This document shows, piece after piece, positions 2,239-60,608 of a DNA stretch of 64,000 bases (within the stretch, counting starts at the first letter, position 1; every line of letters starts with the position of its first letter). Source of the stretch: an uncultured Candidatus Saccharibacteria bacterium (GTDB taxonomy: Bacteria; Patescibacteriota; Minisyncoccia; Phycocordibacterales; UBA3531). The translations under genes and the position numbers were made by a program. Below the pieces are notes generated by a model. That model was not told where the DNA came from, made no database searches, and saw only the letters and a list, made by a program, of their open reading frames with translations. The stretch spans positions 5,299 to 69,298 of the forward strand of contig CAYIAA010000002.1 of the NCBI GenBank assembly GCA_964361405.1, in the 5' to 3' direction.

Positions 2239-2796
2239 ATGACGCTTGTCTCCCTCACGAATACAGTCCTTTCTTTTGCCGCCGTGGCGGGGCAGGCAGG
2301 TATTCTTCTTCTCATCGGCCTGCTCGCATTTCGCCGGACAAGAGCACTGGAGCGTATCGGCAAAAGCGCTGTTCTGGTCTCTTTCGCCGTCGCGCTCGTG
2401 GCGACTCTCGGCAGCCTGCTTTACTCGGAAGTTATCGGTTATGAGCCGTGCAAACTCTGCTGGTTTCAGCGTATTTTCATGTACCCGGAAGTAATTCTCC
2501 TCGGCGTCGTACTTTGGAAAAAAAATGGAGCCGGTATTGTGGACGCGAGCGCAATTCTTTCTGCAATCGGAGCGGTTATTGCCGGCTATCACTATCTTCT
2601 GCAGGCCGATATCGCACCCGCGCTCCCGTGTTCCGCCACAGGGTATTTAGTCTCGTGTTCCGAACGGTTCGTGATGAGCTTCGGCTACATTACGATTCCG
2701 TTGATGACATTCACGGCCTTTGTGTTCATCACCCTCTTGCTCGTCATCTCAAAAATCCACGAGAAATCTGGTAAGGTGGCGAATATCCAGCGATAA
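2239..2796 (+). CDS. disulfide bond formation protein B (DsbB/BdbC family)
   Basis: Four TM segments; CKLCWFQR motif in first loop and a second Cys pair (PCSATGYLVSC); forms a pair with the upstream Trx-like gene. Confidence 0.65.
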   Translation: MTLVSLTNTVLSFAAVAGQAGILLLIGLLAFRRTRALERIGKSAVLVSFAVALVATLGSLLYSEVIGYEPCKLCWFQRIFMYPEVILLGVVLWKKNGAGIVDASAILSAIGAVIAGYHYLLQADIAPALPCSATGYLVSCSERFVMSFGYITIPLMTFTAFVFITLLLVISKIHEKSGKVANIQR

Positions 2797-17952: not shown

Positions 17953-19767
17953 TTAGTTCTCTCTGTGAGGATCTTTAGAAATTGGGTGGTTAAAAATTGG
18001 CCAGATGCTCTCGGTATAGAGGTGCCAGGCATACACATTCAAATATCGCTCTGACTGTACCGTAAGGGCAACGGGTGAAATGCCTTTTACGCGTTCAGGA
18101 ATGATGTAGAGAAAGTTTGGAGCGTAGAGAAAAATTGCGGGGATATCCTTTTCCACCGTTTCTTGGAATTCTTTGTACATCCTCTCGCGCTCTGCCCGAT
18201 TCTCGGTTTTCCTCGCGTTCTCGAGGAGTTTGTCCACGGTGACGTTCGCATAGAGCGCGACATTGAGTCCGGGGTCAAGCCGTTGGGATGAGTGCCAGAA
18301 AGCGAAAGGGTCGGGGTCTCTTCCGATAATCTCTCCAAAAAGGAGAGCATCGTAGTCGCGTTGGCGAATGATGTTTTGGTTCAAATCCCCGGTTTCAAAA
18401 ACACGTATCTCCACTTGGGCGCCCAAACGCTCCCACGTTTCCTTTACTATTTCTGCCACGGCTTTGAGTTCTGGAACATCAGCTGTCGCGAGGTGGAATG
18501 AAAGTTTTTCTTCGTTTTTTTTCTCCGTTTTCGTGAAGATATTGTCAGAGGGGTTACGTTTCCACCCATCTTCAATGAGAGAGAGTGCCGCGAGTTCAAG
18601 TGGGTTTGTTGTTGAAGCAGTGGCAGCTGCTACAGCACGAATTCCCGAAATGTAGCCGAGTGCCCCCGGTGGAATCGGTCCTTCGATCGGAGACCCGTAG
18701 CCGCTCAGCACTTCTTCCACAATACCCCCCGTACTAAGTGCATCACGGAGTGCACGTCGCACGGCGAGGCTGGTGAATATCCGCGCATGGTCTTGGTTAA
18801 AGAAGACGCCGAATACTCGTGTCAGTGGAAATTCGATAATGCGGCTCGCCCGCTCTTCTTTCATGAGAGCTGAATTTGGTGAAAGTCCTCCGACAAGCTC
18901 GAAAGCGCCGTTCCTAAAAGCATTCTCAAGTGTCGTTTCATTCGGATAGAATCGGAGGCGAATCCGATCGATAAAAGGTTCCCCGAGCGCAAAATGTTCG
19001 AACGACTTCAAGTCATAGTATTCGGGTACCCCCACCTCGTTTCGAACGATGCCTTCCACTTTATATGGACCGCCCCCAACAGGACTTATGTTAAACGTGC
19101 TTACGCCGAATTCCTCGGCCGAGATAGTGCCCCAGATGTGTTTTGGAATAATGCCAAGAGTGGCATTTTCAGGAAAAGGAGAATAAGGCTGTTTCAAACT
19201 GAATTCCACGGTGCGCTCGTCAATTTTTTGAACCACCACCCCCTCCCAGCTTGCCCTCCGTGAGCTTTTCACCAGCGGGTCAGTAATTTTTTTTATGGTG
19301 AAGACAACGTCGTCCGCCGTGATTGGTACGCCGTCATGCCATATGAGCCCAGGACGGAGCGTGAAGGTATAGGTGAGGCCGTCAGGAGATACGGAGTAGC
19401 TCTCCGCGAGATCGGGGATGAGATTGCCACTCTCTCCGACGCGAAGGAGTCCGGAGTAGAGGAGTGCGACAAGGTCTTTATCTGCCTCGGAAACGGCGAG
19501 GAGTGGGTTCACGAAGCGGGGACTCCCGACGATACCTTCGGAGATTCCACCGCCATGAACTGGCACTATGGAGGAAACGCTTCCATTAACCCGGGTGAGT
19601 ATTCCGAGTACACTTGCGATGGAAATCCAAAAAAGTGCCCAGAATATAATCCGTTCACGGAGTGAAAACTCGCGAATAATGCGTGGAATGTCGCTCTCCC
19701 GCGACAAATCTGCCCCGCCGAGGAAGGGAAATGTGTATTCCTTTTTGAGTGCGTCAGGTAATTTCAC
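17953..19767 (-). CDS. extracellular solute-binding protein family 5 (OppA/DppA-like), N-terminally membrane-anchored
   Basis: TM IIFWALFWISIASVLGIL followed by the family-5 SBP profile (PYKVEGIVRNE ..., FRNGAFELVGG). Confidence 0.75.
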   Translation of the reverse strand: MKLPDALKKEYTFPFLGGADLSRESDIPRIIREFSLRERIIFWALFWISIASVLGILTRVNGSVSSIVPVHGGGISEGIVGSPRFVNPLLAVSEADKDLVALLYSGLLRVGESGNLIPDLAESYSVSPDGLTYTFTLRPGLIWHDGVPITADDVVFTIKKITDPLVKSSRRASWEGVVVQKIDERTVEFSLKQPYSPFPENATLGIIPKHIWGTISAEEFGVSTFNISPVGGGPYKVEGIVRNEVGVPEYYDLKSFEHFALGEPFIDRIRLRFYPNETTLENAFRNGAFELVGGLSPNSALMKEERASRIIEFPLTRVFGVFFNQDHARIFTSLAVRRALRDALSTGGIVEEVLSGYGSPIEGPIPPGALGYISGIRAVAAATASTTNPLELAALSLIEDGWKRNPSDNIFTKTEKKNEEKLSFHLATADVPELKAVAEIVKETWERLGAQVEIRVFETGDLNQNIIRQRDYDALLFGEIIGRDPDPFAFWHSSQRLDPGLNVALYANVTVDKLLENARKTENRAERERMYKEFQETVEKDIPAIFLYAPNFLYIIPERVKGISPVALTVQSERYLNVYAWHLYTESIWPIFNHPISKDPHREN

Positions 19768-19840: not shown

Positions 19841-20074
19841 CTAGACGAGGAGCGCCGCGAGCGACGTGAGACCGAACAAAATTGCAATAACGATGGTTCC
19901 AATGAATAGAATCCGTTCAATACCTCTCCGGGTGTAGTAGTTTCCACCGCCTCCTCCGCCACCGAACGTTGTGCCTAAGCCACCCTCGTCAGAGCGCTGA
20001 AGGAGAATGGCGGCGATGAGCGCCCCCGAGAGGGCGATTTGCACCCACGGGAGGGCGCTCGAGAGAGTTACCAT
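19841..20074 (-). CDS. secG: preprotein translocase subunit SecG
   Basis: MVTLSSALPWVQIALSGALIAAILLQRSDEGGLG ... FGGGGGG ... TM2; start ATG 20074. Confidence 0.75.
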   Translation of the reverse strand: MVTLSSALPWVQIALSGALIAAILLQRSDEGGLGTTFGGGGGGGNYYTRRGIERILFIGTIVIAILFGLTSLAALLV

Positions 20075-20104
20075 ACGTGAAAGTGAGTATAGCGTAGCGG
20101 TTAC

Positions 20105-20151
20105 GATACTGTCAAGCTCAGTGTTGACAGTATCTGGGAAACGACTATACT
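20105..20151 (+). promoter_or_regulatory. groESL promoter (TTGACA-16-TATACT) overlapped by a perfect 11-bp inverted repeat
   Basis: GATACTGTCAA-N8-TTGACAGTATC (20105-20134); -35 TTGACA at 20124-20129, -10 TATACT at 20146-20151; no CIRCE consensus present. Confidence 0.5.
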
Positions 20152-20236
20152 GGTTCCGACAACAGATTCTTTTTCTCCTTTTTTTCATTTTTAACACTGG
20201 GGATTATTAGTAAAGCCAAAGATAAGGGTATGGCGT

Positions 20237-20554
20237 ATGAGTACCAAACAAACCAGAACGATTATTAAACCACTCGGGGATCGTGTCCTCGTTGAACCGA
20301 TCAGCCCAGATGACCTTCTGTTGAAGACGAAGGGCGGAATTATCATTCCCGAGACCGTCGATAAAGAAAGGCCGGAGCGGGGGAGAGTGGTTGCCGTGGG
20401 GCCCGGGAAAATCGAAGAAGGACGCATAGTGCCGATGTCCGTAAAGAAAGGCCAAATCGTCATTTTTTCGAAATATGGTCCGGATGAAATCAAGGTAGAC
20501 GGCAAAGAATATTTCATTTTGAGCGAGTCGAGTATTTTAGCGGTGATCGAATAA
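20237..20554 (+). CDS. groES: co-chaperonin GroES
   Basis: IKPLGDRVLV ... GGIIIPETVDKE ... GRVVAVGPG. Confidence 0.9.
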   Translation: MSTKQTRTIIKPLGDRVLVEPISPDDLLLKTKGGIIIPETVDKERPERGRVVAVGPGKIEEGRIVPMSVKKGQIVIFSKYGPDEIKVDGKEYFILSESSILAVIE

Positions 20555-20572
20555 CGTATCAGAATAACGAAT

Positions 20573-22237
20573 ATGACAGCAAAACAAATTCTCTTTAACG
20601 ATGAAGCCCGAGCAGGTCTCAAGCGCGGTATCGACAAGCTTTCACAGGCAGTCAAAATGACGCTCGGCCCGCGCGGCAGGGCAGTGGTAATCGAAAAGGG
20701 CTATGGAGCCCCGCAGGTAACCTTGGACGGTGTGACGGTTGCAAAAGAGATTGAGCTTGAGGAAAAGTTCGAGAATCTTGGCGCAGATTTAATCAAACAA
20801 GCGGCGGAAAAGACAAATGACCTTGTGGGCGATGGAACTACGACGTCCGTCATTATTGCGCACTCTATTATAGAAGAGGGCGAGAAAGCGGTCCGTGAAA
20901 AGAGTTTTAACGTCATCCAGCTTGCCGACGAACTGATGGCGGGAACAGAGTCTGTGATCCGCTCGCTCGAAGACCAGAAGGAACCCATCAATGACCAGAA
21001 GAAGATTGAAGAGGTCGCCGCGCTCTCGGCGAAAGACGCGGATATTGGCAAATTGATCGCCACTGTCATCGCAAAAGTCGGCAAAGACGGTGTGGTGACG
21101 ATCGAAGACTCAAATACCATGGTGAGCGATTTCGAGCTCGTCGAGGGTATGCAGTTTGACCGCGGCTACATTTCGCCTTACATGATCACGAATCCCGATA
21201 AGATGGAGGCGCAGTACTCCGACCCTTACATCCTCATTACCGATAAAAAGATTTCATCCATTAAGGAAATTCTTCCGATCCTCGAGACGCTTGCGGCGCA
21301 AGGAAAGAAAGAACTTGTCATTATTGCCGACGAGATTGAAGGAGAGGCTTTGGCGACACTCGTCGTGAATAAACTCCGCGGAATTTTGCACACGCTCGCA
21401 ATCAAGTCCCCGGGCTACGGAGACCGAAAGAAAGAAATGCTTGAAGACATTGCGATTATGACCGGTGGCAAAGTGGTCTCGGAAGACATTGGTCTTAAGC
21501 TTGAAGGCGTCGGACTTGAAGTTTTGGGACGGGCGCGCAAAGTAATCGCGACGAAAGATGCAACGACGGTCGTCGGCGGAAAGGGCAAGAAAGCCGACAT
21601 TGAAAACCGGCTGAAACAGCTTCGGAAACAGCTTGAGCTTTCTGACTCGACATTTGACAAGGAAAAATTTGAAGAGCGTATCGGAAAACTCTCTGGAGGC
21701 GTTGCCGTGATTAAAGTCGGCGCTCCGACGGAGTCGGCACAGAAGGAATTGAAACAGCGCGTTGAAGACGCCGTTGCGGCGACGAAAGCAGCGATGGAAG
21801 AGGGAATCGTTCCCGGCGGCGGCATCGCGCTTTTTAACATCGCGTCGGGGAAAACGGGTAAGGCGACGTCAGACGAAGTTTCTGCTCGGGCGAAAGAAAT
21901 TCTCGCGGGGGCACTCCGCGCGCCGCTCACCGCAATCATCGAGAACAGCGGCAAGTCAGCACCGGACACCATTCGTGCGCTTGAGGAAGGAAAGCGTGAC
22001 GCGAAATCCGCTTCGGCGCGGACATGGCTCGGTTTTAATGCCGTCACGAATAAAGTCGAAGATTTGAAGCGCGCAGGCATCATTGACCCCTTGAAAGTGA
22101 CGAAAACTGCATTCTTAAATGCTGTTTCTATTGCGGCCAGCTACCTTACGATTGGCGCCGCAATTGCCGATATCCCGAAGAAAGACGAACCAGGACACCC
22201 AGGCGGCGGAGGCATGCCTGGCGGGATGGATTATTAA
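20573..22237 (+). CDS. groEL: chaperonin GroEL
   Basis: Full-length Hsp60 with GDGTTT, VEGMQFDRGYISPY, C-terminal GGM tail. Confidence 0.95.
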   Translation: MTAKQILFNDEARAGLKRGIDKLSQAVKMTLGPRGRAVVIEKGYGAPQVTLDGVTVAKEIELEEKFENLGADLIKQAAEKTNDLVGDGTTTSVIIAHSIIEEGEKAVREKSFNVIQLADELMAGTESVIRSLEDQKEPINDQKKIEEVAALSAKDADIGKLIATVIAKVGKDGVVTIEDSNTMVSDFELVEGMQFDRGYISPYMITNPDKMEAQYSDPYILITDKKISSIKEILPILETLAAQGKKELVIIADEIEGEALATLVVNKLRGILHTLAIKSPGYGDRKKEMLEDIAIMTGGKVVSEDIGLKLEGVGLEVLGRARKVIATKDATTVVGGKGKKADIENRLKQLRKQLELSDSTFDKEKFEERIGKLSGGVAVIKVGAPTESAQKELKQRVEDAVAATKAAMEEGIVPGGGIALFNIASGKTGKATSDEVSARAKEILAGALRAPLTAIIENSGKSAPDTIRALEEGKRDAKSASARTWLGFNAVTNKVEDLKRAGIIDPLKVTKTAFLNAVSIAASYLTIGAAIADIPKKDEPGHPGGGGMPGGMDY

Positions 22238-43074: not shown

Positions 43075-43164
43075 GGAGGCGTGGCTGAGAGGTTGAAGGC
43101 GCCACACTCGAAATGTGGTATTCGGGGAACCGGATCGGAGGTTCGAATCCTCCCGCCTCCGCCA
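43075..43164 (+). tRNA. tRNA-Ser (anticodon CGA), CCA encoded
   Basis: Acceptor GGAGGCG/CGCCTCC, anticodon stem CCACA/TGTGG, loop CTCGAAA, long variable arm, T-arm GGAGG-TTCGAAT-CCTCC, 3' GCCA; end anchored to the downstream ATG. Confidence 0.85.
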
Positions 43165-43166
43165 AA

Positions 43167-43649
43167 ATGTTAAAAATAAAACCGTTCAAACAAAAACCTT
43201 CATCCTGCGGACCAGCGTCATTAAAAATGGTGCTGGGATATTACGGAGTTACAAAAAGCGAGAAAGAGTTGGGAAGATTATCCGGGTGCACCAAAGCTCA
43301 CGGCACCAAAACCAAAGGCTTGCTTAAAGCTGCCAAGCACTCCGGTTTTACAGGATTCATAAAAGACTTTTCGGACATTAAGGATATACGGCATTACGTA
43401 ACAAAGAAAAAGATACCGGTCATCGTAAACTGGTTTTCGGTAAGCGAAGGGCACTATAGCGTGGTGGCGGGCATAGATAAAGAGAAAATCTATTTAGAAG
43501 ACCCCGAATTCGGACGTATGCGGTCAATGCGACTCAATGATTTCAAGGCCGTCTGGTTTGATTTTTCGTCGCCTTGGCTGAAATCAAAGAGTGATTTGGT
43601 GATACGGAGAATGCCCGTAGTAGTCCCTAAAACGAAAAAGCTTGGTTAG
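43167..43649 (+). CDS. peptidase C39-like (papain-fold cysteine peptidase) domain protein
   Basis: QKPSSCGPASLKMVLGYYG (catalytic Cys region) and GHYSVVAGID (His region); ATG 2 nt after the tRNA CCA. Confidence 0.6.
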   Translation: MLKIKPFKQKPSSCGPASLKMVLGYYGVTKSEKELGRLSGCTKAHGTKTKGLLKAAKHSGFTGFIKDFSDIKDIRHYVTKKKIPVIVNWFSVSEGHYSVVAGIDKEKIYLEDPEFGRMRSMRLNDFKAVWFDFSSPWLKSKSDLVIRRMPVVVPKTKKLG

Positions 43650-48857: not shown

Positions 48858-49400
48858 TTACTTTTCCACGACTCCAGGGAAGAGTTCGACTCTCGTCAAA
48901 GGAAGAAGGCGCAAGATAACGCGTCCGACGATTAAGTTTTCCGGCACCGGTCCCCATGTGCGGGAATCGGAACTCGCGGATCGATTGTCGCCCATAACAA
49001 AATACTCTTTCGATTCGAGTGACGCGTCGTCCCGCGGGAGGATTGGTTTTGACGGAAGATATGACTCGTCAATTTTTTCGCGTTTGTCATCCACCATGAC
49101 GAAGATGTCGGAGTCTCTGATCTCAAGCACTTCATTCGGGAGTCCGATGATGCGTTTAATGAAAAATTTCGAGTGATCTTTTGGGTAACGAAAAATGACG
49201 ATCTCGCCGCGCGCGGGTTCACGGAAACGGTACGAGAGCTCATCCACAATCAAGTATTCGCCATCTCCGAATGTCGGTACCATTGATTCCCCAGAAACGA
49301 CGAAGGGTTGGGCGATGTAGAGTTTTATCGGTAGCGTGATGGCAAGCGCGATTACGAAGTAGGTGATAAACTCGCGCACATACTTCGAGAGACTATTCAT
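48858..49400 (-). CDS. lepB: signal peptidase I
   Basis: VSGESMVPTF (Ser box), GDNRSASSDSR, single N-terminal TM. Confidence 0.85.
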   Translation of the reverse strand: MNSLSKYVREFITYFVIALAITLPIKLYIAQPFVVSGESMVPTFGDGEYLIVDELSYRFREPARGEIVIFRYPKDHSKFFIKRIIGLPNEVLEIRDSDIFVMVDDKREKIDESYLPSKPILPRDDASLESKEYFVMGDNRSASSDSRTWGPVPENLIVGRVILRLLPLTRVELFPGVVEK

Positions 49401-52257: not shown

Positions 52258-54728
52258 AGGATAAGGATAAAGAAGTAAAAAAAGACGAAGGAACCGAGCG
52301 GGTTGTTGTTGTGGACATCGTTCCGGAAATGCGGGAGTCCTATCTCGACTATGCGATGTCGGTTATTGTTTCTCGCGCACTTCCCGATGTCCGAGATGGA
52401 CTTAAACCGGTGCACCGGAGAATTCTCTATGATATGCACGAGCTCGGACTTACTCACACCGCGCGTTTCCGAAAATCAGCCATGGTTGTCGGCGACGTAA
52501 TCGCAAAATATCACCCGCATGGCGAGTCCGCAGTGTACGATTCACTTGTTCGGATGGCACAAGATTTCACGACCCGCTACCCGCTCATTAGCCCGCAAGG
52601 AAACTTCGGCTCTCTTGACGGCGATCCACCGGCGGCTTATCGCTACACGGAAGCGAAACTTTCCCGCATTGCCTCTGAAATGGTACGTGACCTCGAGAAG
52701 GACACGGTTGAGTGGAAACCAAACTATGACAATACCCGCCGCGAGCCGTGGGTACTTCCCGCACTTCTCCCGAATTTATTACTGAACGGTACGCTTGGTA
52801 TTGCCGTTGGCATGGCGACGAAGATTCCACCGCATAATCTCCGCGAAATCGTTGATGCGCTTATCCATCTTGCCGAGCACCCACGCGCCGACACCGAGGA
52901 CTTACTTGCCTATGTCAAAGGGCCGGACTTTCCCACCGGCGGCATTGTGTATAACGCGCGGGATATTCGCCACGCGTATACGCATGGGCGAGGAGGGGTT
53001 GTCGTCCGCGGAGAAGCGGAAATCGTTGAAGATGATAAGGAATCTTCCATTGTTATTACATCAATCCCATATCAGGTCAATAAGGCCGAGCTCATCATGA
53101 AGATGGCCGACCTTGTCAGGGAAAAGAAGATTGACGGAATCAGGGATTTGCGAGACGAGTCCACGAAAGACGTGCGAATTGTCGTCGAGTTAAAGCACGG
53201 TTCATACCCTGAAAAGGTGCTCAACTTCCTCTATAAGCACACTGACCTTGAAACCGTTTTTCATTTCAATATGCTCGCGCTCTCGGGCGGTGTGCCGAAA
53301 CTCCTATCGCTTCGGGATATCCTCGAAGAATTTATCGAGCACCGGCGTTTGGTCGTGACGCGTCAAACGCGCTACGACCTCGCGCGCGCCGAGGAGCGGG
53401 CGCATATCCTCGAGGGGCTTAAAATTGCGCTCGACGACATTGATGCCGTCATTAAGACGATTAAATCATCGCGAGATACGGATGAGGCGAAAAAGAATCT
53501 CATGACCAAGTTCAAACTTTCGGAGATTCAAGCGGTGGCGATTCTTGATATGAAGCTTTCAAAGCTTGCCGGACTTGAACGAAAGCGCGTCGAGGAGGAA
53601 CTCAAAGAAAAAAAAGCGCTTATCAAAGAATTGAAAAGCATATTGGCTGACCCGAAGAAGGTACTGGGAATCGTTATCGAAGGATTTCGGCGTCTCTCCC
53701 GCGAATATGGTGATGAACGAAGGACAAAAGTAGTGACGCATGAGGCGAAGGCGATATCACTCGAAGACACCGTACCGGATGTTGAGAACGTTCTCGTTTT
53801 GACGCAGGGGGGATATGTGAAGCGCACCGACCCGAAGGAGTTCCGTCTTCAGCGTCGTGGCGGAGTCGGTGTGTCGGATCTCTCGACCCGCGAAGAGGAT
53901 TTCGTCCGGATTTTTCTTACGGCAAGCACACACTGCGATCTTCTGTTTTTCACCGACCGTGGCAAAGTTTACCAAATGAAATTCTATGACATTCCGGAAG
54001 GGAAACGTGCAACGCGCGGTAAGGCGATCGTGAATTTTCTCTCGATTGCCGCCGGTGAACGGGTAACGTCTGTGCTTCCCGTTCCTCGCACGTCACGCGG
54101 AGCAAATTCTGCCGCTCTCATGGTGACGCGCCGGGGCGTGGTGAAAAAAGTCCTGATGGAGAGTTTTAAAGACGTGCGGCGGAGCGGTATCATTGCCCTT
54201 TCTCTCGGGTCTGGCGATGAGCTTCTCGCTGTCCGCGTAGTTGAAAAAGGCGATGATGTTTTGCTCGCCACTCGGAATGGTCAATCGATTCGGTTTTCCG
54301 AGTCAAATATCCGGGCGATGGGACGCACGGCGGGAGGTGTTACCGGAATAAAACTCGCTTCATCTGACGCCATTGTGGGCGCGGTGGTCTCACCACACGC
54401 GGACGGTGGAGATGAAACATCTCTCCTTGTGGTGAGCGAACAGGGGTTCGGAAAAAGGACGCGGATAAAAGAATACCGTCTCCAGCGCCGCGGCGGGAGC
54501 GGAGTGAAAACATTTAAGGTGACGACGAAGACCGGAAAAGTGATTGCCGCACGGGCCCTCCGAGGCTCCCTCGGTGAGCTTCTTGCCATATCGAGACAGG
54601 GGGTGGCCATTAAAGTACCGCTCGCGCAAATTCCGCTCCAAGGCCGTCAAACCCAAGGGGTGCGCGTGATGCGGCCGCGTTCCGGGGATGCACTCGCATC
54701 GGTGACCTGTCTTGAAGAAGTTTTATAA
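52254..54728 (+). CDS. gyrA: DNA gyrase subunit A
   Basis: [26 protein letters not shown] (catalytic Tyr region), GyrA-box, beta-pinwheel repeats. Confidence 0.95.
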
Positions 54729-54786
54729 TTGCTCTTGGTGTGCAAAAGAGCCTTCTCGGGTGGAGCGCCACGGTATAGAATAGAGT

Positions 54787-55332
54787 ATGCCCTTCAGTGA
54801 CCCAGAGAAGAATATCCGGTATTTGAAACTTGAAGAAGGAATGCGTGTGGCGGACTTCGGGACTGGTTCAGGCGCCTACGTAGCCGCACTCGCAGAGCGA
54901 GTTGGGAATACGGGCAAGGTGTATGCCATTGATATCCAACAAGAGCTTCTCCGCACGCTCGAGCGGAATTTGCGTGAGCAAGAAGTCAAAAATGTTGAAT
55001 TTGTATGGTCGGATCTTGATGAGCCGAGTGGGTCAAAACTTCAAGCTGGATCACAGGGTGCCGTCGTTATTGCAAATCTCCTCTTTCAATCGGAAAATAA
55101 ACTCGGGCTCTTTCGTGAAGCATGGCGTGTGCTTAAGCCCAGCGGAGTGCTCTTGGTAGTCGACTGGAGCGATTCTTTTTCAAACTTGGGGCCGGTGCCC
55201 GAGGCGGTAGTGACTCTCACACAAGCGAAATCGCTCTTGAGCGAAGCGGGATTTACCCCAGAGCGCGAATTTGAGGCAGGAGATCACCACTACGGCATCG
55301 TTTCCCGGAAAGACCGAAAAGAAAAACTATGA
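54787..55332 (+). CDS. class I SAM-dependent methyltransferase
   Basis: Motif I VADFGTGSGAY; post-I acidic residue; motif II VVIANLLF. Confidence 0.75.
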   Translation: MPFSDPEKNIRYLKLEEGMRVADFGTGSGAYVAALAERVGNTGKVYAIDIQQELLRTLERNLREQEVKNVEFVWSDLDEPSGSKLQAGSQGAVVIANLLFQSENKLGLFREAWRVLKPSGVLLVVDWSDSFSNLGPVPEAVVTLTQAKSLLSEAGFTPEREFEAGDHHYGIVSRKDRKEKL

Positions 55333-56651
55333 GCGGACTTCAAGTAGGAATGATTATTTTTTTCCTCGCCCTTGCAATTTTAGGCGTCCTTCTTTTTGCC
55401 GGTATCATACCGGGGTTTAGTGGAACGACCTCTTCACGGGAAAGCGCCGTCAAAATTTTGATATGGGGAACATTGCCTCATGAAGATGTTGAAAAAGTAT
55501 CCGATGCCTTTGTGAAGCGCGAGCGCGGTCGGTTTGACATCACCTATGTTGTGCAATCAAGCGAGAATTTGGAAATAAATCTTCTTCGCGCCATCGCAGA
55601 CGGCAGTGCACCGGACATCATTCTTTTTCCTGATGACCTTCTCCTCTCTCTTGAGAACCAGTTTTTTACGATTCCGCCCGAGTCAATGAATGAGCGCGCT
55701 TTCCGCGAACGATTCGCGGAAGCGGGCGAACTTTTTAGTGTTCCTCAAGGAATCCTCGCTCTTCCCATCGCACTTGATCCGGTCGTTATGTACTGGAATC
55801 GTGACATTTTCAAGGAAGTGGGTGTCTTGAAGCCTCCGGAGTATTGGGATGAACTCTTCGATTTTGCGAAGCGTACTTCTGTGAAAGATTCCTCCGGCAA
55901 AGTGCTTTTAAGCGCTGTTTCGCTCGGGGAAACCCGAAACATTACGCACTCAAAAGAAATATTAAGCACACTCTTTATGCAGACGGGGACACCGATTACC
56001 CGTCGTACACCTGCTGGGCGCGTGGTCTCGGAACTTGTACGGCGTGACGAAAACTCACCTGTCACGCCGGCAGAATCTGGACTCGTTTTTTATACAGATT
56101 TTTCGAATCCCGCGAAGCCACACTATTCATGGAACGGTTCATTGCCTCAATCGCGTGATGCCTTTGGCGCGGAACTGCTCGCGATTTATTTTGGACTCGC
56201 GAGCGATCTTGAGACAATTCGGAGTGGGAACCCCCATCTTAATTTCGATGTGACGGAGGTTCCTCAAATCCGAGATGGACGATCAAAATTAACGTGGACA
56301 AAAATATTCGGAGGAGCTGTGCTTAAAAGTTCAAAACAAATTGGCTCCGCTCTCGAAGTGCTCTATGCTTTAACGGACGCCGAAAGCGAAAAACTGTTTT
56401 CTGAAGTGCTTAATCTTCCTCCGGCGCGTCGGGACTTGCTTTCCACTGCGCATCCGGATCCTTACAGTGCTAGTTTCTATCGTTCCGCCGCGTTTGGAAA
56501 GGGATGGCTTGACCCTAACCAAGCACGCACGATGACTATTTTTCAAGATATGGTCGACAAAGTAACCGCTCGACGGATAACACCTTCGGTCGCGGTCTTT
56601 GATGCGGGGGAACAGCTCAGTGAGGCGCTCGAAAGTCTCGACGTACGATGA
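55329..56651 (+). CDS. membrane-anchored extracellular solute-binding protein family 1-like
   Basis: N-terminal TM then family-1 SBP pattern (ILIWGTL ..., ALPIALDPVVMYWNRDIF, YWDELFDFAK); ATGA overlaps on both sides. Confidence 0.6.
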   Translation: MSGLQVGMIIFFLALAILGVLLFAGIIPGFSGTTSSRESAVKILIWGTLPHEDVEKVSDAFVKRERGRFDITYVVQSSENLEINLLRAIADGSAPDIILFPDDLLLSLENQFFTIPPESMNERAFRERFAEAGELFSVPQGILALPIALDPVVMYWNRDIFKEVGVLKPPEYWDELFDFAKRTSVKDSSGKVLLSAVSLGETRNITHSKEILSTLFMQTGTPITRRTPAGRVVSELVRRDENSPVTPAESGLVFYTDFSNPAKPHYSWNGSLPQSRDAFGAELLAIYFGLASDLETIRSGNPHLNFDVTEVPQIRDGRSKLTWTKIFGGAVLKSSKQIGSALEVLYALTDAESEKLFSEVLNLPPARRDLLSTAHPDPYSASFYRSAAFGKGWLDPNQARTMTIFQDMVDKVTARRITPSVAVFDAGEQLSEALESLDVR

Positions 56652-57103
56652 TGCCGCACACGTTTTTCATATCCGCTCTTCTTACTAGTTTCTTTCTCCC
56701 CGTAGTGGCATTTGGAGCGCTTGTTACGTGCGGCACGTCAACAACTGCACCTTGCACAATCTGCGACTTCTATCAGCTCGTAAAGACGCTTACTGATTTT
56801 CTCCTCATCATCATCGTACCGCTTGCGATACTTGCCTTGGCTGTAGGCGGGATTTATTTACTCGCGGCAGGCGGTAGGGAGTCATGGGTGTCGCGCGGCA
56901 AGGAAATTATATGGTCGGCCGTTATCGGGGTATTGATCGCGCTCGTTGCGTGGATTGCAGTGAATACGATTATGTCGCTTTTGATTGATCCTGTTACGTT
57001 CCCCTTGCCGTGGAATCAATTTCCATCGTGTTCTACTGCACCGGGGTCATCAAGCGGCAGTGCGGGTGGTTTCCGTGGCGGTGGCGCAAGCGGCAGTTTT
57101 TAA
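56648..57103 (+). CDS. pilin-like small secreted/membrane protein P1 (T4SS-pilin/TrbC-VirB2-like), divergent member
   Basis: Signal peptide, core LLIIIVPLAILALAVGGIYLLAAGG ... IIWSAVIGVLIALVAWIAVN, extra Cys pairs, Gly-rich tail. Confidence 0.55.
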   Translation: MMPHTFFISALLTSFFLPVVAFGALVTCGTSTTAPCTICDFYQLVKTLTDFLLIIIVPLAILALAVGGIYLLAAGGRESWVSRGKEIIWSAVIGVLIALVAWIAVNTIMSLLIDPVTFPLPWNQFPSCSTAPGSSSGSAGGFRGGGASGSF

Positions 57104-57128
57104 CAGCGAATTACATTTCAGACTTCAT

Positions 57129-57545
57129 ATGAAAAACCTTGTCCACAGCTTTAAAAAAACGTTATTTCATAAAGCTTTTTTTTGGTCTATCCTTAGCCTA
57201 GGTGTTCTGGGGATAGAGAAGGCGTATGCAACACATATACCTGGGCATTCGTCTGGGGGGCCAACTCCGCCCTCGACTGGCGACGGACTCACTAACCCGT
57301 TGAGGGCCGACAGTCTTGTTGAACTTCTTGAAGGGTTTGTAGAAGTAATTCTCACTGTTGCCATTCCCATTGCGGCAGTATTCATCATCTACGCCGGACT
57401 TCTCTTTGTGACGGCTGGCGGCAATGAGACCAAGATCGCATCGGCGAAAAAGACGTTTTACTGGACTATTATCGGTGTAACGGTGCTTCTTGGCGCAAGT
57501 ATCATCATTCGAGTGATTACGGAGACCGTGACGGGGCTGAACTAG
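57129..57545 (+). CDS. pilin-like protein P2 (T4SS-pilin/TrbC-VirB2-like)
   Basis: Core VEVILTVAIPIAAVFIIYAGLLFVTAGGNETKIASAKKTFYWTIIGVTVLLGASIIIRVI. Confidence 0.6.
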   Translation: MKNLVHSFKKTLFHKAFFWSILSLGVLGIEKAYATHIPGHSSGGPTPPSTGDGLTNPLRADSLVELLEGFVEVILTVAIPIAAVFIIYAGLLFVTAGGNETKIASAKKTFYWTIIGVTVLLGASIIIRVITETVTGLN

Positions 57546-57620
57546 CCGAACTCGCTTTACCAGAAATAATACAAAGGTCGTTCTTAATTTATTAACAGTT
57601 TAAGTTTGAGGTCGTTCACA

Positions 57621-57983
57621 ATGAATAAACTTGCAAAAGTCGTATCAGGTGGTGTCACTAGCTCCATCCTATTGCCCCTCTTCGCATTTGCGCAGGCGGG
57701 GAGTATAGAGGAGTTATTCGACACGATCTTTAATCTCCTGAACCAGCTCGTCCCTATTCTCATCGCCATTGCGGTTGTGTATTTCATCTGGGGAGTGTTG
57801 CAGTTCGTTACCGCAGGTGCTGACGAGGAAAAAAGGAAGAGCGGACGAAACACAATGATTTTTGGCATTATTGCCATCTTTGTCATTGTATCGGTGTGGG
57901 GATTGGTGAATATTCTCGAGGGAACATTCGGTCTCTCGGAGGAGGGAGCACTTCCGGGTCCAGAATTGCCTTCACCGAGATAA
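57621..57983 (+). CDS. pilin-like protein P3
   Basis: Signal peptide ending AQA; core LVPILIAIAVVYFIWGVLQFVTAGADEEKRKSGRNTMIFGIIAIFVIVSVWGLVN. Confidence 0.6.
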   Translation: MNKLAKVVSGGVTSSILLPLFAFAQAGSIEELFDTIFNLLNQLVPILIAIAVVYFIWGVLQFVTAGADEEKRKSGRNTMIFGIIAIFVIVSVWGLVNILEGTFGLSEEGALPGPELPSPR

Positions 57984-57990
57984 GTCTTAC

Positions 57991-58269
57991 ATGAGCGTTT
58001 TGATTGCCGTTGCCCATGCCCAGGGCACGGCGGAGCGCTTTGTTGGGAGGTTGGTTGGTGATGTTCTCCAGCCGATTGTCTACCTCTTAATCACTCTTGC
58101 GATAGTTTTCTTCCTCTGGGGTGTTGTTCAATTTATTAGCGGCGCGGATAATGCGGAGCGCGTCGGAGAAGGACGAAACCACATACTCTGGGGGCTTGTT
58201 GGACTCTTCATCATGGTGAGCGTCGTTGGCATTATGAACTTACTGTGTAACTCAATAGGGGCTTGCTAA
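57991..58269 (+). CDS. pilin-like protein P4
   Basis: Core LQPIVYLLITLAIVFFLWGVVQFISGADNAERVGEGRNHILWGLVGLFIMVSVVGIMN; TAATG overlap with P5. Confidence 0.6.
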   Translation: MSVLIAVAHAQGTAERFVGRLVGDVLQPIVYLLITLAIVFFLWGVVQFISGADNAERVGEGRNHILWGLVGLFIMVSVVGIMNLLCNSIGAC

Positions 58270-58622
58270 TGCGAAAAATACTGGATTGGAGTGTCTTCTT
58301 GGTCATAATTCTCGCGCTTATCGCATTCCCGAAAGGGGTTGGGGCACAGGTGGATGACCTTGGTGACCTCGTTGAGGTGATACTTGAACTCTTGAATAGC
58401 GTTGTTGCACTCATCGTCGCCCTCGCGGTTGTGATCTTCATCTGGGGTATTCTCAAATATATTAGCGCTGGCGAGAGTGAGGAGAAGATTCGCGAAGGAA
58501 GAAACTATATTATCTACGGAATCATCGGTATCTTCGTCATGGTAAGTGTTTGGGGATTGGTAGCTCTTCTCTCGAATACCTTTCAGCTCGATACGTCGAG
58601 TTTGCCAACACCGAATATTTAA
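58269..58622 (+). CDS. pilin-like protein P5
   Basis: Signal peptide ending GAQ; core VVALIVALAVVIFIWGILKYISAGESEEKIREGRNYIIYGIIGIFVMVSVWGLVA. Confidence 0.6.
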   Translation: MRKILDWSVFLVIILALIAFPKGVGAQVDDLGDLVEVILELLNSVVALIVALAVVIFIWGILKYISAGESEEKIREGRNYIIYGIIGIFVMVSVWGLVALLSNTFQLDTSSLPTPNI

Positions 58623-58685
58623 GGGGAAGAGGAGGAGGAGATAGCGCAAAGTGTCTATTTCCGGAACGACCTCATCTAAAAAAAG

Positions 58686-58724
58686 AAGAGGAGCAGGGGG
58701 ATTGAACCCCGTGCTCCTCTTTTG
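58686..58724 (+). terminator. rho-independent terminator of the pilin-like array
   Basis: AAGAGGAGCA-GGGGgattgaaCCCCg-TGCTCCTCTT followed by TTT. Confidence 0.65.
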
Positions 58725-58775: not shown

Positions 58776-59432
58776 CTACCTCCTAGTCGGTTTTTCGTTG
58801 AAGGTCACGGGTTCGTAGGTATGGTCACCTGCTCTGTCACCAGTTAAAAGTTTTCCTTGGCAGGAAAACTTTTTTCCTACTTGTCTACAGGCAAGCCACC
58901 CGCTTCGCTCATGGAAGCCATCTGCAGTGTTTGACCATCGCCAGCTTGCTTCCACCGGTTTCCCGAAGTTGTTCTCCGGGAACGGCTTTGTGCGGATCTC
59001 ACCTTCCGGTTCGTAGTAAGCCCACCTTCCTGTTCCTCTATAGACGATGACCACTTGGACATACCCACTACTTGGGTACTCGAGGTGAGCCGTGGCGGAC
59101 ATACATCTGTCGGCGGGAATCAACCCTTCCTGAAATTCTTCGACTTCATTTCCAATTCCCATATCAATGCCACCGAAGCAGTATGTGCCTTCCCGATTTG
59201 CGAAGAGTTCTGAAAGACCGGAGACGTTTGGATACCGATGCCAACCGAGATAGAGAGCAACTAGAACGCAGACGACAAGTGTTCCGATGAAGAACTGCCG
59301 TTTCGATGGCCGTTCCACATCCTGTACCAAACTTGCCGTTGTTGCCAGTAGCCTGCCCCCGTATCTTCTCGAAAGTCCCACGAGGACAATTGCAAGAAGC
59401 CCAACGACGAGAAGAATAACTTCAGGACGCAT
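58776..59432 (-). CDS. hypothetical membrane protein (2 N-terminal TM + soluble domain), possible SPFH partner
   Basis: Operon-like 4-nt spacing after the SPFH gene; TM helices VILLVVGLLAIVLVGL and FIGTLVVCVLVALYLGW. Confidence 0.4.
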   Translation of the reverse strand: MRPEVILLVVGLLAIVLVGLSRRYGGRLLATTASLVQDVERPSKRQFFIGTLVVCVLVALYLGWHRYPNVSGLSELFANREGTYCFGGIDMGIGNEVEEFQEGLIPADRCMSATAHLEYPSSGYVQVVIVYRGTGRWAYYEPEGEIRTKPFPENNFGKPVEASWRWSNTADGFHERSGWLACRQVGKKFSCQGKLLTGDRAGDHTYEPVTFNEKPTRR

Positions 59433-59435
59433 GCG

Positions 59436-60608
59436 CTACCCCTTTTCTTCCGGGGGAGTTTCTCTGTCACCGTCCTTCAGGCTACCAGCAATCCCGCTTG
59501 CGACCCCAATGAGTTCCGCGAGCCCGCCAGTGCCGACAATGACCGTCTTCTGACCTGGGTTCTCGGTGATTACCCGCGCGGTTTCTGCACCAAGAACTGC
59601 CATAGCTGGAACACCAAGTTCCGTCGCCTGTCTCTTGTAGCCGGCAGTACGACCGTCGATACGAGCTTGTTCTCCAAGTCCGTCACCTTCGCCCTCAAGC
59701 CGACGCTTCTCTTTTTCACCTTCCGCTGTCGTCATGGTAGCAACTTTTTGTGCAGCTGCCATTGACATCTTCTGAATTTCCTCATTCAACGAGTGAGCTG
59801 GAAGCAACTGCTTGATTTGAACTGTCGCCATTGATATGCCGAAGTCGTTGTTGTCCGCAAATTCTTCAACCGCCCGCCTTGCTTTCTCGGTGTAACGGTT
59901 GAGATCTTTGTTGATGACCGCTGGAGTAAACTTTCCGAAGTCATCAGCGATCGCTCCGAGCGCGATATCGTTCAGTATTCGATCTGCTTCCCCAGTTGTC
60001 CCGACCGTTGTCAGGAACTTGCAGAAGTCATCGATGCGGTAGACCGCGAAGATGGGAACTTCAAGCGTTACCCGTCGATTGAGCGGGTCATCTTCGCCCA
60101 GATCCCGTCTGGGGTCATTGGGATCATTGGTGTCAGGTTTCGACGGATAGCCGAAGGTGATCCTATTCGGAGGAAAAAATCCTTCCGGTGAAGTACCATC
60201 CCCACGATAGATTTTTTCTGGGTTCGCTGGCCACTCCCGTTCGATGTTGAGTCTCGCCTCCTCCTCTAGAGTGCAGATGAAGAGTGGAACAAAACAAAGA
60301 CCAGATGACACGTTATAGATCGGCTTACCGAAGAGTAGAACAGCTCCAAGTCTCGTTGGGCCAACTATTTTGAAGCTTGCCACTATGTAGAGCATTTGTA
60401 GTACCAGGAGTAAGCCTCCCGCACTCCACTCTACTTCGAAGAAGGAATCCTTGAACGTAGTTCCTTGGAGTTGGAGAACGATCTCGATCGCGAAAAAGAT
60501 AACACTCACAAAGCCAACCACGACCCAGAACGACCATATCTTTCGAGCTAATGGTTCTGAGGGTATCTGTGCAGGAGGTTGTTCCTGCCTCTCTGGTTCG
60601 GGTATCAC
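59436..60608 (-). CDS. SPFH/band-7 (stomatin/flotillin-like) domain protein
   Basis: N-terminal TM, band-7 core (VGPTRLGAVLLFGKPIYNV ... TLEVPIFAVYRIDD), C-terminal coiled coil (EKEKRRLEGEGDGLGEQARIDG). Confidence 0.7.
   Translation of the reverse strand: MIPEPERQEQPPAQIPSEPLARKIWSFWVVVGFVSVIFFAIEIVLQLQGTTFKDSFFEVEWSAGGLLLVLQMLYIVASFKIVGPTRLGAVLLFGKPIYNVSSGLCFVPLFICTLEEEARLNIEREWPANPEKIYRGDGTSPEGFFPPNRITFGYPSKPDTNDPNDPRRDLGEDDPLNRRVTLEVPIFAVYRIDDFCKFLTTVGTTGEADRILNDIALGAIADDFGKFTPAVINKDLNRYTEKARRAVEEFADNNDFGISMATVQIKQLLPAHSLNEEIQKMSMAAAQKVATMTTAEGEKEKRRLEGEGDGLGEQARIDGRTAGYKRQATELGVPAMAVLGAETARVITENPGQKTVIVGTGGLAELIGVASGIAGSLKDGDRETPPEEKG

What the first reader, a model, noticed from the sequence alone, without database searches (positions are those of the whole stretch)
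56648..58724. Tandem array of five paralogous pilin-like (T4SS-pilin / TrbC-VirB2-type) genes with an upstream methyltransferase and a membrane-anchored SBP-like protein
Five consecutive same-strand small ORFs (92-151 aa) share one architecture: a cleavable-looking signal peptide (AQA or GAQ just before the mature part in P3 and P5), a hydrophobic helix, an AG(A/G)(D/N/E)EEK ... GRN loop, and a second hydrophobic helix ending in SVWGLV. P3, P4 and P5 are clearly paralogous, P2 is more distant, and P1 is the most diverged, with extra Cys pairs and a Gly/Ser-rich tail. Stop and start codons overlap (ATGA at 56648 and TAATG at 58267), and a single strong terminator at 58686-58724 closes the block, so this looks like one operon running from the SAM methyltransferase (54787) through the TM-anchored solute-binding-like protein (55329) into the array. 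This two-helix 'AGG/AGxxEEK' pattern is what I recall for VirB2/TrbC conjugative pilins and for the CPR T4SS-pilin family. No VirB4, VirB6 or VirD4 gene is present in this window, so the polymerisation or secretion machinery is unaccounted for. Five diversified copies suggest a heteropolymeric filament or antigenic or host-range variation, possibly an episymbiont attachment or DNA-uptake structure.
Basis: partly seen in the sequence, partly recalled or inferred. Interest (0 to 1): 0.78.

Follow-up and report, generated by a model that had tools for sequence, protein, structure and literature searches.

The report
SBP-linked VirB2-like pilin gene array
Five small membrane-protein genes of the 'T4SS pilin' family sit in one operon behind a membrane-anchored sugar-binding protein in a Patescibacteria (Parcubacteria-type) genome; such pilin arrays are already known in this phylum, but this one belongs to a widely conserved, apparently undescribed version that is tied to the binding protein rather than to the secretion machinery.

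Summary
Five same-strand genes (P1-P5, 92-151 aa) lie at 56648-58622, packed behind a SAM methyltransferase and a TM-anchored solute-binding protein (SBP) and closed by a strong hairpin. P2-P5 pass Pfam's cut-off for PF18895 (T4SS_pilin). P1 falls just below it but is homologous by profile comparison.

The kind is already published. Arrays of 2-11 divergent VirB2-like pilin genes were reported in 383 Patescibacteria assemblies (PMC12102498). A six-gene PF18895 array is essential in Southlakia epibionticum (PMC10633639).

What I add:
- In all 64 related species loci with enough downstream sequence, an SBP orthologue is followed directly by 4-7 pilin genes.
- gyrA lies upstream in 63 of 65 loci and the methyltransferase in 55 of 65.
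- Array positions are orthologous across species: 327 of 360 proteins are closer to another species' gene than to their own paralogues. This argues for specialised subunits, not antigenic-variation cassettes.
- No T4SS gene lies in the 64 kb window, and none recurs near the array in relatives.

Direct tests against canonical VirB2 (Pfam TrbC, hhalign, PDB sequence and fold searches) were sub-threshold or non-diagnostic. No pilus has been demonstrated. Verdict: a new variant of a known kind, of moderate interest.

The parts
54702..54729 (+). Sigma-70-like promoter match (GTGACC-16-TATAAT) at the 3' end of gyrA, 58 nt before the methyltransferase start. Possible operon promoter; weak evidence.
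   Evidence: 10 of 12 consensus matches, but the number of such sites in the region is no more than shuffles give.
54787..55332 (+). Small class I SAM-dependent methyltransferase (181 aa). Its stop overlaps the SBP start. It accompanies the module often but not always.
   Evidence: Pfam Methyltransf_31/25/11, E down to 5e-17. No NCBIfam model reaches its cut-off. Present directly upstream of the SBP in 55 of 65 related loci.
55329..56651 (+). Membrane-anchored solute-binding protein (440 aa): N-terminal TM helix (residues 3-23), flexible linker (27-37), then a complete oligosaccharide-type SBP fold.
   Evidence: Pfam SBP_bac_1 46.4 bits and SBP_bac_8 44.5 bits, both above cut-off. AlphaFold model pLDDT 90.7. 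Foldseek PDB best hits are mannotriose-, maltodextrin- and sophorooligosaccharide-binding proteins, E 5e-22. phmmer against PDB finds 4r9f at 4e-8. At least 559 species genomes encode a relative.
56648..57103 (+). P1, the class A ('position 1') pilin-like protein (151 aa). Signal-peptide-like N-terminus, conserved Cys pair (C28, C36), two hydrophobic helices, Gly/Ser-rich tail specific to this genome. Its ATG overlaps the SBP stop codon.
   Evidence: PF18895 24.5 bits, just under the 26.6 cut-off. hhalign of class A against classes B, C and D gives 98-99.7% probability. All top-20 hits are position-1 genes of other arrays. Cys pair at least 90% conserved.
57129..57545 (+). P2, the class B ('position 2') pilin-like protein (138 aa). 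Signal peptide ending AYA|T, Pro-rich linker, conserved NPL motif, two hydrophobic helices.
   Evidence: PF18895 37.0 bits. TrbC PF04956 22.1 bits, sub-threshold. 19 of its top-20 hits are position-2 genes. NPL motif conserved.
57621..57983 (+). P3, a class C pilin-like protein (120 aa) of the type usually found next-to-last in related arrays. AFAQA|GS cleavage motif.
   Evidence: PF18895 45.5 bits. NF045849 (Mycoplasma ICE pilin-like) 36.7 bits against a cut-off of 40. 14 of its top-20 hits are penultimate genes.
57991..58269 (+). P4, the class D ('last position') short pilin-like protein (92 aa). Only a 10-12 residue leader (MSVLIAVAHA|QG), then two hydrophobic helices.
   Evidence: PF18895 34.7 bits. 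No upstream in-frame start or hydrophobic extension. 15 of its top-20 hits are the last gene of other arrays.
58269..58622 (+). P5, a class C pilin-like protein (117 aa) of the type usually found at position 3; here it is displaced to the end. GVGA|Q cleavage motif. Its start overlaps the P4 stop (TAATG).
   Evidence: PF18895 47.8 bits. AlphaFold model pLDDT 75.6 with helices 2-24, 31-66 and 71-104. Top hits are mostly position-3 or middle genes.
58684..58723 (.). Strong hairpin between the convergent P5 and the minus-strand gene 58776-59432. Flanked by an A-run and a U-run, so probably a bidirectional intrinsic terminator closing the operon.
   Evidence: RNA fold -30.3 kcal/mol, z -5.81, 0 of 200 shuffles as stable. 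Sequence read.

Best explanation
The block methyltransferase - TM-anchored oligosaccharide-type SBP - P1..P5 is one operon of a Parcubacteria/Paceibacteria-type Patescibacterium.

P1-P5 are members of the PF18895 'T4SS pilin' family, which has a VirB2-like topology. They are exported through Sec. P1, P2, P3 and P5 are probably cut by signal peptidase I at small-x-small sites; P4 has almost no leader. All five sit in the membrane as two-helix hairpins joined by a short charged loop.

They are not interchangeable copies. They represent at least four ancient orthologue classes: A, B, a variable-number class C, and a short class D. These classes hold a fixed order in hundreds of species.

The most likely function (inferred, not shown) is that they are distinct subunits of one envelope-spanning filament or conduit. 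A VirB4-type T4SS encoded elsewhere in the genome would assemble it, as in the essential six-pilin array of the Southlakia T4SS locus. The co-translated SBP would act as a cell-surface receptor for a host-derived oligosaccharide working alongside that structure.

Shown: family membership, topology, operon structure, conservation, positional orthology and the SBP fold. Inferred: polymerisation, dependence on a T4SS, the ligand, and any physical SBP-pilin contact.
For: Family and topology:
- PF18895 above cut-off for P2-P5. Precomputed PF18895 hits on all five genes of the identical contig.
- Classes A-D are mutually homologous, hhalign 98-99.9%.
- Signal-peptide-like N-termini, -3/-1 cleavage sites and two hydrophobic segments each. 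Three-helix model.
- Signal peptidase I and a DsbB/thioredoxin pair are present in the window. Class A keeps a conserved Cys pair.

Conservation of the module:
- All 64 SBP-anchored loci with at least 3 kb downstream carry 4-7 same-strand pilin genes directly after the SBP.
- Gene-caller gaps between SBP and first pilin run from -4 to +38 nt.
- Three look-ups started from pilin homologues land in the same module.
- Positional orthology is 81-94% for positions 1, 2, penultimate and last. 327 of 360 proteins have a better match in another genome than in their own array.

Links to conjugation systems:
- Weak matches to TrbC (E 1.8e-4) and to the Mycoplasma ICE pilin-like family NF045849 (E 2.5e-9, below cut-off).

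Literature:
- PF18895 arrays are essential and lie inside the T4SS locus in Southlakia (PMC10633639; its supplement).
- VirB4 is present in 2,417 of 3,035 Patescibacteria assemblies (PMC12102498).

SBP: the fold matches oligosaccharide SBPs at E 5e-22.
Against: - No T4SS component is in the 64 kb window, in about 5 kb beyond its right end, or recurrent within +-10 kb of the array in 16 related genomes. Whether this genome has a VirB4 at all was not verified.
- No pilus made of PF18895 proteins has been seen in any Patescibacterium (PMC12857230).
- The SBP-pilin adjacency sits inside a longer syntenic housekeeping block (S1, Lactamase_B_3, gyrA). Part of the conservation may therefore be inherited gene order rather than functional coupling.
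Confidence: 0.58

Rival explanations
1. A T4SS-independent membrane complex. The five to seven two-helix proteins (10-14 TM helices in all) assemble in the cytoplasmic membrane as the partner of the SBP, forming an uptake or sensing device. 'Pilin' would then be only a name carried over from a remote resemblance.
For: The invariant genetic partner is an import-type SBP, not virB4. No ABC permease or ATPase for this SBP lies in the window or recurs nearby. Direct tests against VirB2 are negative or inconclusive. Monoderm T4SSs normally lack pilins (PMC12102498).
Against: The same Pfam family forms the essential array inside the T4SS locus of Southlakia. Sub-threshold TrbC and ICE pilin-like matches point to conjugation systems. 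No energy-coupling component is linked to the module. Cleavable leaders plus two-helix hairpins are the VirB2 design.
Confidence: 0.2
2. An antigenic or host-range variation cassette. The copies are interchangeable major pilins kept diverse by duplication and diversifying selection, as proposed for Bartonella and Anaplasma VirB2 paralogues.
For: Low pairwise identity, 24-45%. The number of class C genes varies from about 1 to 4 between species. The published discussion suggests this reading (PMC12102498).
Against: Positions are orthologous across species whose SBPs share only about 40% identity. 327 of 360 proteins are closer to another species' gene than to a paralogue in their own array. Classes A, B and D have class-specific conserved motifs: the Cys pair, NPL, and the missing leader. 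At most this applies to the class C subset.
Confidence: 0.1
3. The gene order is a phylogenetic accident. The pilin array is a T4SS part, while the SBP and methyltransferase are unrelated housekeeping neighbours that merely share a transcript.
For: gyrA, S1 and Lactamase_B_3 upstream are as conserved in position as the SBP. The methyltransferase is missing in about 8-10 of 65 loci.
Against: SBP and array stay together when gyrA is absent upstream (L063, L071), when the methyltransferase is lost, and when extra genes are inserted between gyrA and the methyltransferase (L092, L011, L013). Start and stop codons overlap or lie a few nucleotides apart.
Confidence: 0.12

Closest known systems
VirB2-like pilin arrays of Patescibacteria (Quinonero-Coronel et al. 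2025, PMC12102498; essential array SEML1_0014-0019 of Southlakia epibionticum ML1, Wang et al. 2023, PMC10633639)
   Same: Same Pfam family (PF18895). Tandem same-strand genes of about 90-150 aa. Low identity between copies: 24-45% here, against a reported mean of 25% and maximum of 54%. Patescibacterial chromosome rather than a mobile element.
   Different: Here the array is not in or near a T4SS gene cluster. It follows a TM-anchored oligosaccharide-type SBP (plus a methyltransferase) next to gyrA. [quoted passage not shown] The paper does not mention an SBP or gyrA.
TrbC/VirB2 conjugative pilins of diderm T4SSs (Pfam PF04956; Agrobacterium VirB2, RP4 TrbC, F TraA)
   Same: Long cleavable leader, two hydrophobic helices joined by a short polar loop, small size.
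   Different: Sequence similarity is sub-threshold (22.1 bits against 27.9). hhalign gives 0.3-34%. There is no adjacent virB1/virB3/virB4 as in Ti plasmids. The host is a monoderm. There are multiple specialised paralogues instead of one major pilin.
Mbov_0395 family pilin-like conjugal transfer protein of Mycoplasma ICEs (NCBIfam NF045849)
   Same: Small two-helix protein of a monoderm (MPF-FATA-type) conjugation system. P2-P5 match it over nearly the whole model (E 2.6e-5 to 2.5e-9).
   Different: All scores (23.8-36.7 bits) are below the 40-bit cut-off. That family is single-copy within an ICE, not a chromosomal array.
Oligosaccharide-binding proteins of ABC importers (MalE, cyclo/maltodextrin-binding protein 2zyo, mannooligosaccharide-binding CpMnBP1 4r9g)
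   Same: Complete two-lobe SBP fold (Foldseek E about 1e-21, TM 0.6-0.8). Pfam SBP_bac_1 and SBP_bac_8 above cut-off. Many invariant aromatic residues.
   Different: 14-19% identity. Anchored by a TM helix. No permease or ATPase genes alongside. Instead it is followed by pilin-like genes in every related locus examined.

Membership tests
Pfam PF18895 T4SS_pilin | Whole-protein HMM score at or above the gathering cut-off (26.6 bits) | tested here: met
   P2 37.0, P3 45.5, P4 34.7, P5 47.8 bits. P1 scores 24.5 (just below) but is tied to the others by hhalign at 98-99.7%.
Pfam PF18895 T4SS_pilin | Small protein with a leader and two hydrophobic helices joined by a short charged loop | tested here: met
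   Hydropathy segments and -3/-1 sites. AlphaFold helices 2-24, 31-66 and 71-104 in P5. P4 has only a 10-12 residue leader.
TrbC/VirB2 pilin (Pfam PF04956) | HMM score at or above the gathering cut-off (27.9 bits) | tested here: not met
   Best is P2 at 22.1 bits (E 1.8e-4). P3 and P5 score about 13 bits.
TrbC/VirB2 pilin (Pfam PF04956) | Profile-profile or structural similarity to authenticated VirB2 or conjugative pilins | tested here: inconclusive
TrbC/VirB2 pilin (Pfam PF04956) | Encoded with the T4SS assembly genes (virB3/virB4/virB6...) | tested here: not met
   None in the 64 kb window. None in gene tables of related loci at +-7-8 kb. None recurrent within +-10 kb in 16 genomes.
TrbC/VirB2 pilin (Pfam PF04956) | Polymerises into an extracellular pilus | not testable with these tools
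   Not shown for any PF18895 protein according to PMC12857230.
Patescibacterial VirB2-like pilin array (PMC12102498) | Two or more PF18895/PF04956 genes in tandem in a Patescibacteria genome, with low identity between copies | tested here: met
   Five genes at 24-45% identity. Homologues are named Parcubacteria, Paceibacterota, Yonath-, Zambryski- and Taylorbacteria.
Patescibacterial VirB2-like pilin array (PMC12102498) | Located within or near the virB4 cluster, as in Southlakia SEML1_0006-0019 | tested here: not met
   See the T4SS-linkage row above. The paper itself reports pilin genes near virB4 in only 1,135 of 1,948 assemblies.
ABC-importer solute-binding protein, SBP_bac_1 type | Pfam score above cut-off and a complete two-lobe SBP fold | tested here: met
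   46.4 and 44.5 bits. Model pLDDT 90.7. Foldseek E 5e-22 to oligosaccharide SBPs.
ABC-importer solute-binding protein, SBP_bac_1 type | Cognate permease and ATPase genes in the same operon | tested here: not met
   No BPD_transp or ABC_tran hit among the annotated window ORFs, nor in the gene tables of related loci. They could be encoded elsewhere.
NCBIfam NF045849 Mbov_0395 pilin-like conjugal transfer protein | Score at or above the 40-bit cut-off | tested here: not met
   23.8-36.7 bits for P2-P5; no hit for P1.

The most novel reading that the evidence does not exclude
The module is an uptake device. A conserved set of four specialised VirB2-like subunits builds a conduit to the host cell, with or without the distant T4SS. 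The translationally coupled, membrane-tethered oligosaccharide-binding protein receives what comes through. This would be the first genomic link between the patescibacterial 'T4SS pilins' and nutrient import. A more radical version is a new SBP-dependent transporter whose membrane part is made of two-helix subunits.
Probability: 0.15. Interest if true: 0.85.

Novelty: new variant of a known kind. Interest (0 to 1): 0.45.

Why it matters
The role of the essential T4SS and its pilin arrays in Patescibacteria is an open question (PMC11665869, PMC12857230). Reviews speculate that it is a conduit for taking molecules from the host.

Three observations make that question more testable. A large Parcubacteria/Paceibacteria-type clade keeps its pilin paralogues in a fixed, orthologous order. 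The array sits away from the T4SS genes. It is always directly behind an import-type oligosaccharide-binding protein.

- These observations argue for a heteromeric, specialised assembly rather than antigenic variation.
- They nominate a concrete partner protein, the SBP, for binding, interaction and localisation experiments.

If the adjacency is only inherited gene order, the finding is simply another member of a published class.

Tried and rejected
- **PDB profile search.** A profile of the pilin alignment against all PDB sequences gave only hydrophobic-segment noise with E at least 0.05 (FliL, designed channels, archaeal Pilin_N).
- **hhalign against VirB2.** I recalled the VirB2 sequence from memory, found it 99% identical to annotated Ti-plasmid virB2 genes, and replaced it with the database sequences. 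The comparison gave no significant match.
- **Search for more pilin copies.** An HMM of P1-P5 against all six-frame ORFs of the window found none.
- **Walking along the source contig.** The right-end look-up gave only about 5 kb more (DUF4446, aminotransferase, an unannotated gene, ClpB). The left-end protein was not on record. Whether this genome encodes a VirB4 is therefore unknown.
- **Lipoprotein reading of P1.** Rejected because LVTC has Thr at -1 and the class consensus has no lipobox.
- **Longer P4 leader.** Rejected because no start codon or hydrophobic segment lies upstream in frame.
- **Rfam.** Only tRNAs were found between 54000 and 62000.
- **Literature.** The held library has no paper linking an SBP to these arrays.


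Full report
**1. What is in the sequence**

Between 54787 and 58622 the + strand carries seven tightly packed genes:
- a 181-aa methyltransferase (54787-55332)
- a 440-aa SBP-like protein (55329-56651, start overlapping the previous stop)
- P1 (56648-57103, ATGA overlap with the SBP stop)
- P2 (57129-57545)
- P3 (57621-57983)
- P4 (57991-58269)
- P5 (58269-58622, TAATG overlap)

A gene caller run by others on an identical public contig gives the same five small genes of 150, 138, 120, 92 and 117 aa.

The block ends at a 16-bp hairpin at 58684-58723. Its free energy is -30.3 kcal/mol and z is -5.8, and it is flanked by an A-run and a U-run. The next genes, an unknown 218-aa TM protein and an SPFH/Band_7 protein, converge on the minus strand.

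Paralogy is well beyond chance, with P3/P5 at E 2e-27 and P1/P2 at E 6e-8.

**2. Family identity**

P2-P5 exceed Pfam's curated cut-off for PF18895 'T4SS_pilin' (34.7-47.8 bits against 26.6). P1 scores 24.5.

I built alignments of the four positional classes from related arrays. They are all mutually homologous, with hhalign probabilities of 98-99.9%, so P1 belongs to the family as well.

Each protein has two strongly hydrophobic segments separated by a short charged loop. P1, P2, P3 and P5 also have an N-terminal hydrophobic leader ending in a small-x-small site: AFG|A, AYA|T, AQA|G and VGA|Q. An AlphaFold model of P5 with 43 aligned sequences (pLDDT 75.6) shows exactly three helices: leader, helix 1 and helix 2.

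P4 has only a 10-12 residue leader. Nothing upstream in frame could extend it.

The window also encodes signal peptidase I (48858-49400, minus strand) and a DsbB/thioredoxin pair (1849-2796). These are the housekeeping functions such proteins would need.

**3. How far the VirB2 label can be trusted**

The link to canonical TrbC/VirB2 is weak in my tests:
- Pfam TrbC reaches only 22.1 bits for P2, against a cut-off of 27.9.
- The Mycoplasma ICE 'pilin-like conjugal transfer protein' model NF045849 matches P2-P5 over its whole length, but below its 40-bit cut-off.
- A profile of P3/P4/P5 and 40 homologues finds no pilin in the PDB by sequence.
- hhalign against four annotated VirB2/TrbC proteins taken from plasmid records gives 0.3% probability. 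Class A reaches 34%.

So 'member of PF18895' is shown. 'Has the VirB2 design' is shown. 'Is a homologue of VirB2' and 'forms a pilus' are not shown here. According to a 2025 review, no pilus has yet been shown in any Patescibacterium (PMC12857230).

**4. Surroundings**

I annotated essentially every sizeable ORF of the window. They are chromosomal housekeeping genes, including GyrA, FtsZ/FtsA, GroEL, ribonucleotide reductase, LepA, LeuRS, HisRS, IF-2, MurJ, RNase J, an AddA-like helicase, TsaD, SecG, S1 and Pth, plus 12 tRNAs.

There is no VirB4, VirB6, VirD4 or VirB8-like gene, and no ABC permease or ATPase. About 5 kb beyond the right end also holds none. The rest of the 195-kb source contig could not be reached.

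The closest homologues of P5 and of the SBP come from Parcubacteria-group MAGs: Paceibacterota, Yonath-, Zambryski- and Taylorbacteria, and Minisyncoccia.

**5. What is already known**

Three sources cover this kind of array.
- Wang et al. [quoted passage not shown] Their supplement shows SEML1_0014 to 0016, 0018 and 0019 hitting PF18895 (the 0017 annotation was not in the passages shown), and the five whose Tn-seq calls were shown (0014, 0016 to 0019) score as essential.
- Quinonero-Coronel et al. 2025 searched 3,035 genomes with PF18895 and PF04956. [quoted passage not shown] They suggested antigenic variation or host adaptation (PMC12102498).
- A 2025 FEMS review calls these the only monoderm T4SSs with potential pili and speculates about an uptake conduit (PMC12857230).

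**6. What appears to be new**

*The module is conserved.* The SBP has relatives at 36-43% identity in at least 559 species-representative genomes. I fetched 80 of those loci and three more through exact-protein look-ups, then scanned them with a pilin HMM.
- All 64 loci with at least 3 kb of downstream sequence have 4-7 same-strand pilin ORFs starting at the SBP stop. The counts are 6 loci with 4 genes, 17 with 5, 26 with 6 and 15 with 7.
- gyrA lies upstream in 63 of 65 loci and the methyltransferase in 55 of 65.
- Three look-ups that started from pilin homologues of P5, independent of the SBP, landed in the same gyrA-methyltransferase-SBP-array module.
- Gene-caller gaps between the SBP and the first pilin are -4 to +38 nt.
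- Large neighbours within +-10 kb in 16 genomes are IF-2, S1, Band_7, aminotransferase and HisRS. No T4SS or ABC-transporter family recurs.
- The 2025 paper analysed +-20 genes around virB4 and mentions neither an SBP nor gyrA. The held literature has no paper linking them.

*The arrays are colinear and positionally orthologous.* Among the top-10 matches in other genomes:
- position-1 proteins hit position 1 in 94% of cases
- position 2 hits position 2 in 87%
- the penultimate gene hits the penultimate in 81%
- the last gene hits the last in 88%

In addition, 327 of 360 proteins score higher against another species' protein than against any paralogue in their own array.

*The classes have their own signatures*.
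- Class A has a conserved Cys pair just after the leader.
- Class B has an NPL motif before helix 1.
- Class C has the FxWG...GK/GRN...WG core and varies in number.
- Class D is short and leaderless.

In the window, P1 is class A and P2 is class B. P3 is the usual penultimate type and P4 the usual last type. P5 is the usual position-3 type, here moved to the end.

Within-class identity across species is 31-36%, against 44% for the SBP.

**7. The SBP and the methyltransferase**

The SBP model is confident (pLDDT 90.7). It has a TM helix at residues 3-23, a disordered linker at 27-37, and a complete two-lobe fold. Its best PDB matches are oligosaccharide binders for mannotriose, cyclo/maltodextrin, sucrose/maltotriose and sophoro-oligosaccharides, at E about 1e-21 (by sequence). 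Many aromatic residues are invariant in 27 homologues. That is typical of sugar pockets (inference).

The methyltransferase is a generic class I enzyme with no equivalog. It is absent from about 8-10 of 65 modules, so it is not an obligatory part.

**8. Interpretation**

The best-supported reading has five points.
- P1-P5 are PF18895 hairpin proteins exported and processed like VirB2.
- They represent four ancient specialised classes.
- They act together in one structure.
- By analogy with Southlakia, that structure depends on a T4SS encoded elsewhere.
- It is expressed with a surface oligosaccharide receptor.

Antigenic variation is disfavoured for classes A, B and D. It remains possible only for class C.

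Two caveats apply. The T4SS was not found, and this genome's possession of one is only an inference from the 80% prevalence in the phylum. The SBP adjacency also lies inside a longer conserved housekeeping block. However, SBP and array stay together where gyrA is missing upstream (L063, L071), where the methyltransferase is missing, and where insertions separate gyrA from the methyltransferase.

**9. Verdict**

The finding is real and correctly assigned to its family, but it is not a new kind. It is a conserved, apparently undescribed variant: SBP-coupled, detached from the T4SS cluster, and positionally orthologous. Interest is moderate at 0.45. It would be high only if the SBP-pilin coupling proves functional.

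Noticed in passing
window 17953-19767 (-), 19841-20197 (-), 20191-20655 (-): An orphan SBP_bac_5 peptide-binding protein is followed by SecG and a small unknown ORF. This is the same gene order as Southlakia SEML1_0634-0636 (peptide SBP, SecG, 'phage holin family'), all scored essential in that Tn-seq study. It is a second conserved 'SBP without transporter' in this genome.
   Followed up: partly
window 1849-2229 (+) and 2239-2796 (+): A thioredoxin-like protein and DsbB sit side by side, forming an extracytoplasmic disulfide-forming pair. This may be relevant to the conserved Cys pair of class A pilins.
   Followed up: no
window 48858-49400 (-): Signal peptidase I (Peptidase_S26) is the likely processing enzyme for the pilin leaders. 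A Peptidase_S26 gene also lies about 8 kb upstream of the SBP in L002.
   Followed up: no
window 56648-58622 compared with L002-L084: The order of pilin classes in this genome (A, B, penultimate-type, last-type, position-3-type) is permuted relative to the usual order. L076 and L084 also have a class C gene after the short class D gene.
   Followed up: partly
L029 (ORF of about 2170 aa after the third pilin), L048 (position 1, about 541 aa), L004 10097-11281 (394 aa): Some related arrays contain very large proteins that carry a pilin-family domain. These may be pilin fusions with large extracellular parts.
   Followed up: no
window 59436-60608 (-) and related loci (L003 has three copies): SPFH/Band_7 genes recur convergently downstream of the array: 8 of the 91 large neighbour proteins scanned from 16 genomes. 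The 218-aa TM protein at 58776-59432 has no family match.
   Followed up: partly
window 8017-9690 (+): This 557-aa protein has only a sub-threshold Trypsin_2 match (26.6 bits against 27.6) and is otherwise unannotated.
   Followed up: no
L005-L084 record titles: About half of the related loci are titled 'uncultured Candidatus Saccharibacteria bacterium', although the named homologues are Parcubacteria/Paceibacteria. The label is probably generic. I did not check it against marker genes.
   Followed up: no
window 43113-43649 (+) and 43075-43164 (+): A stand-alone Peptidase_C39-like ORF overlaps tRNA-Ser at its 5' end, so its real start is probably further downstream.
   Followed up: no
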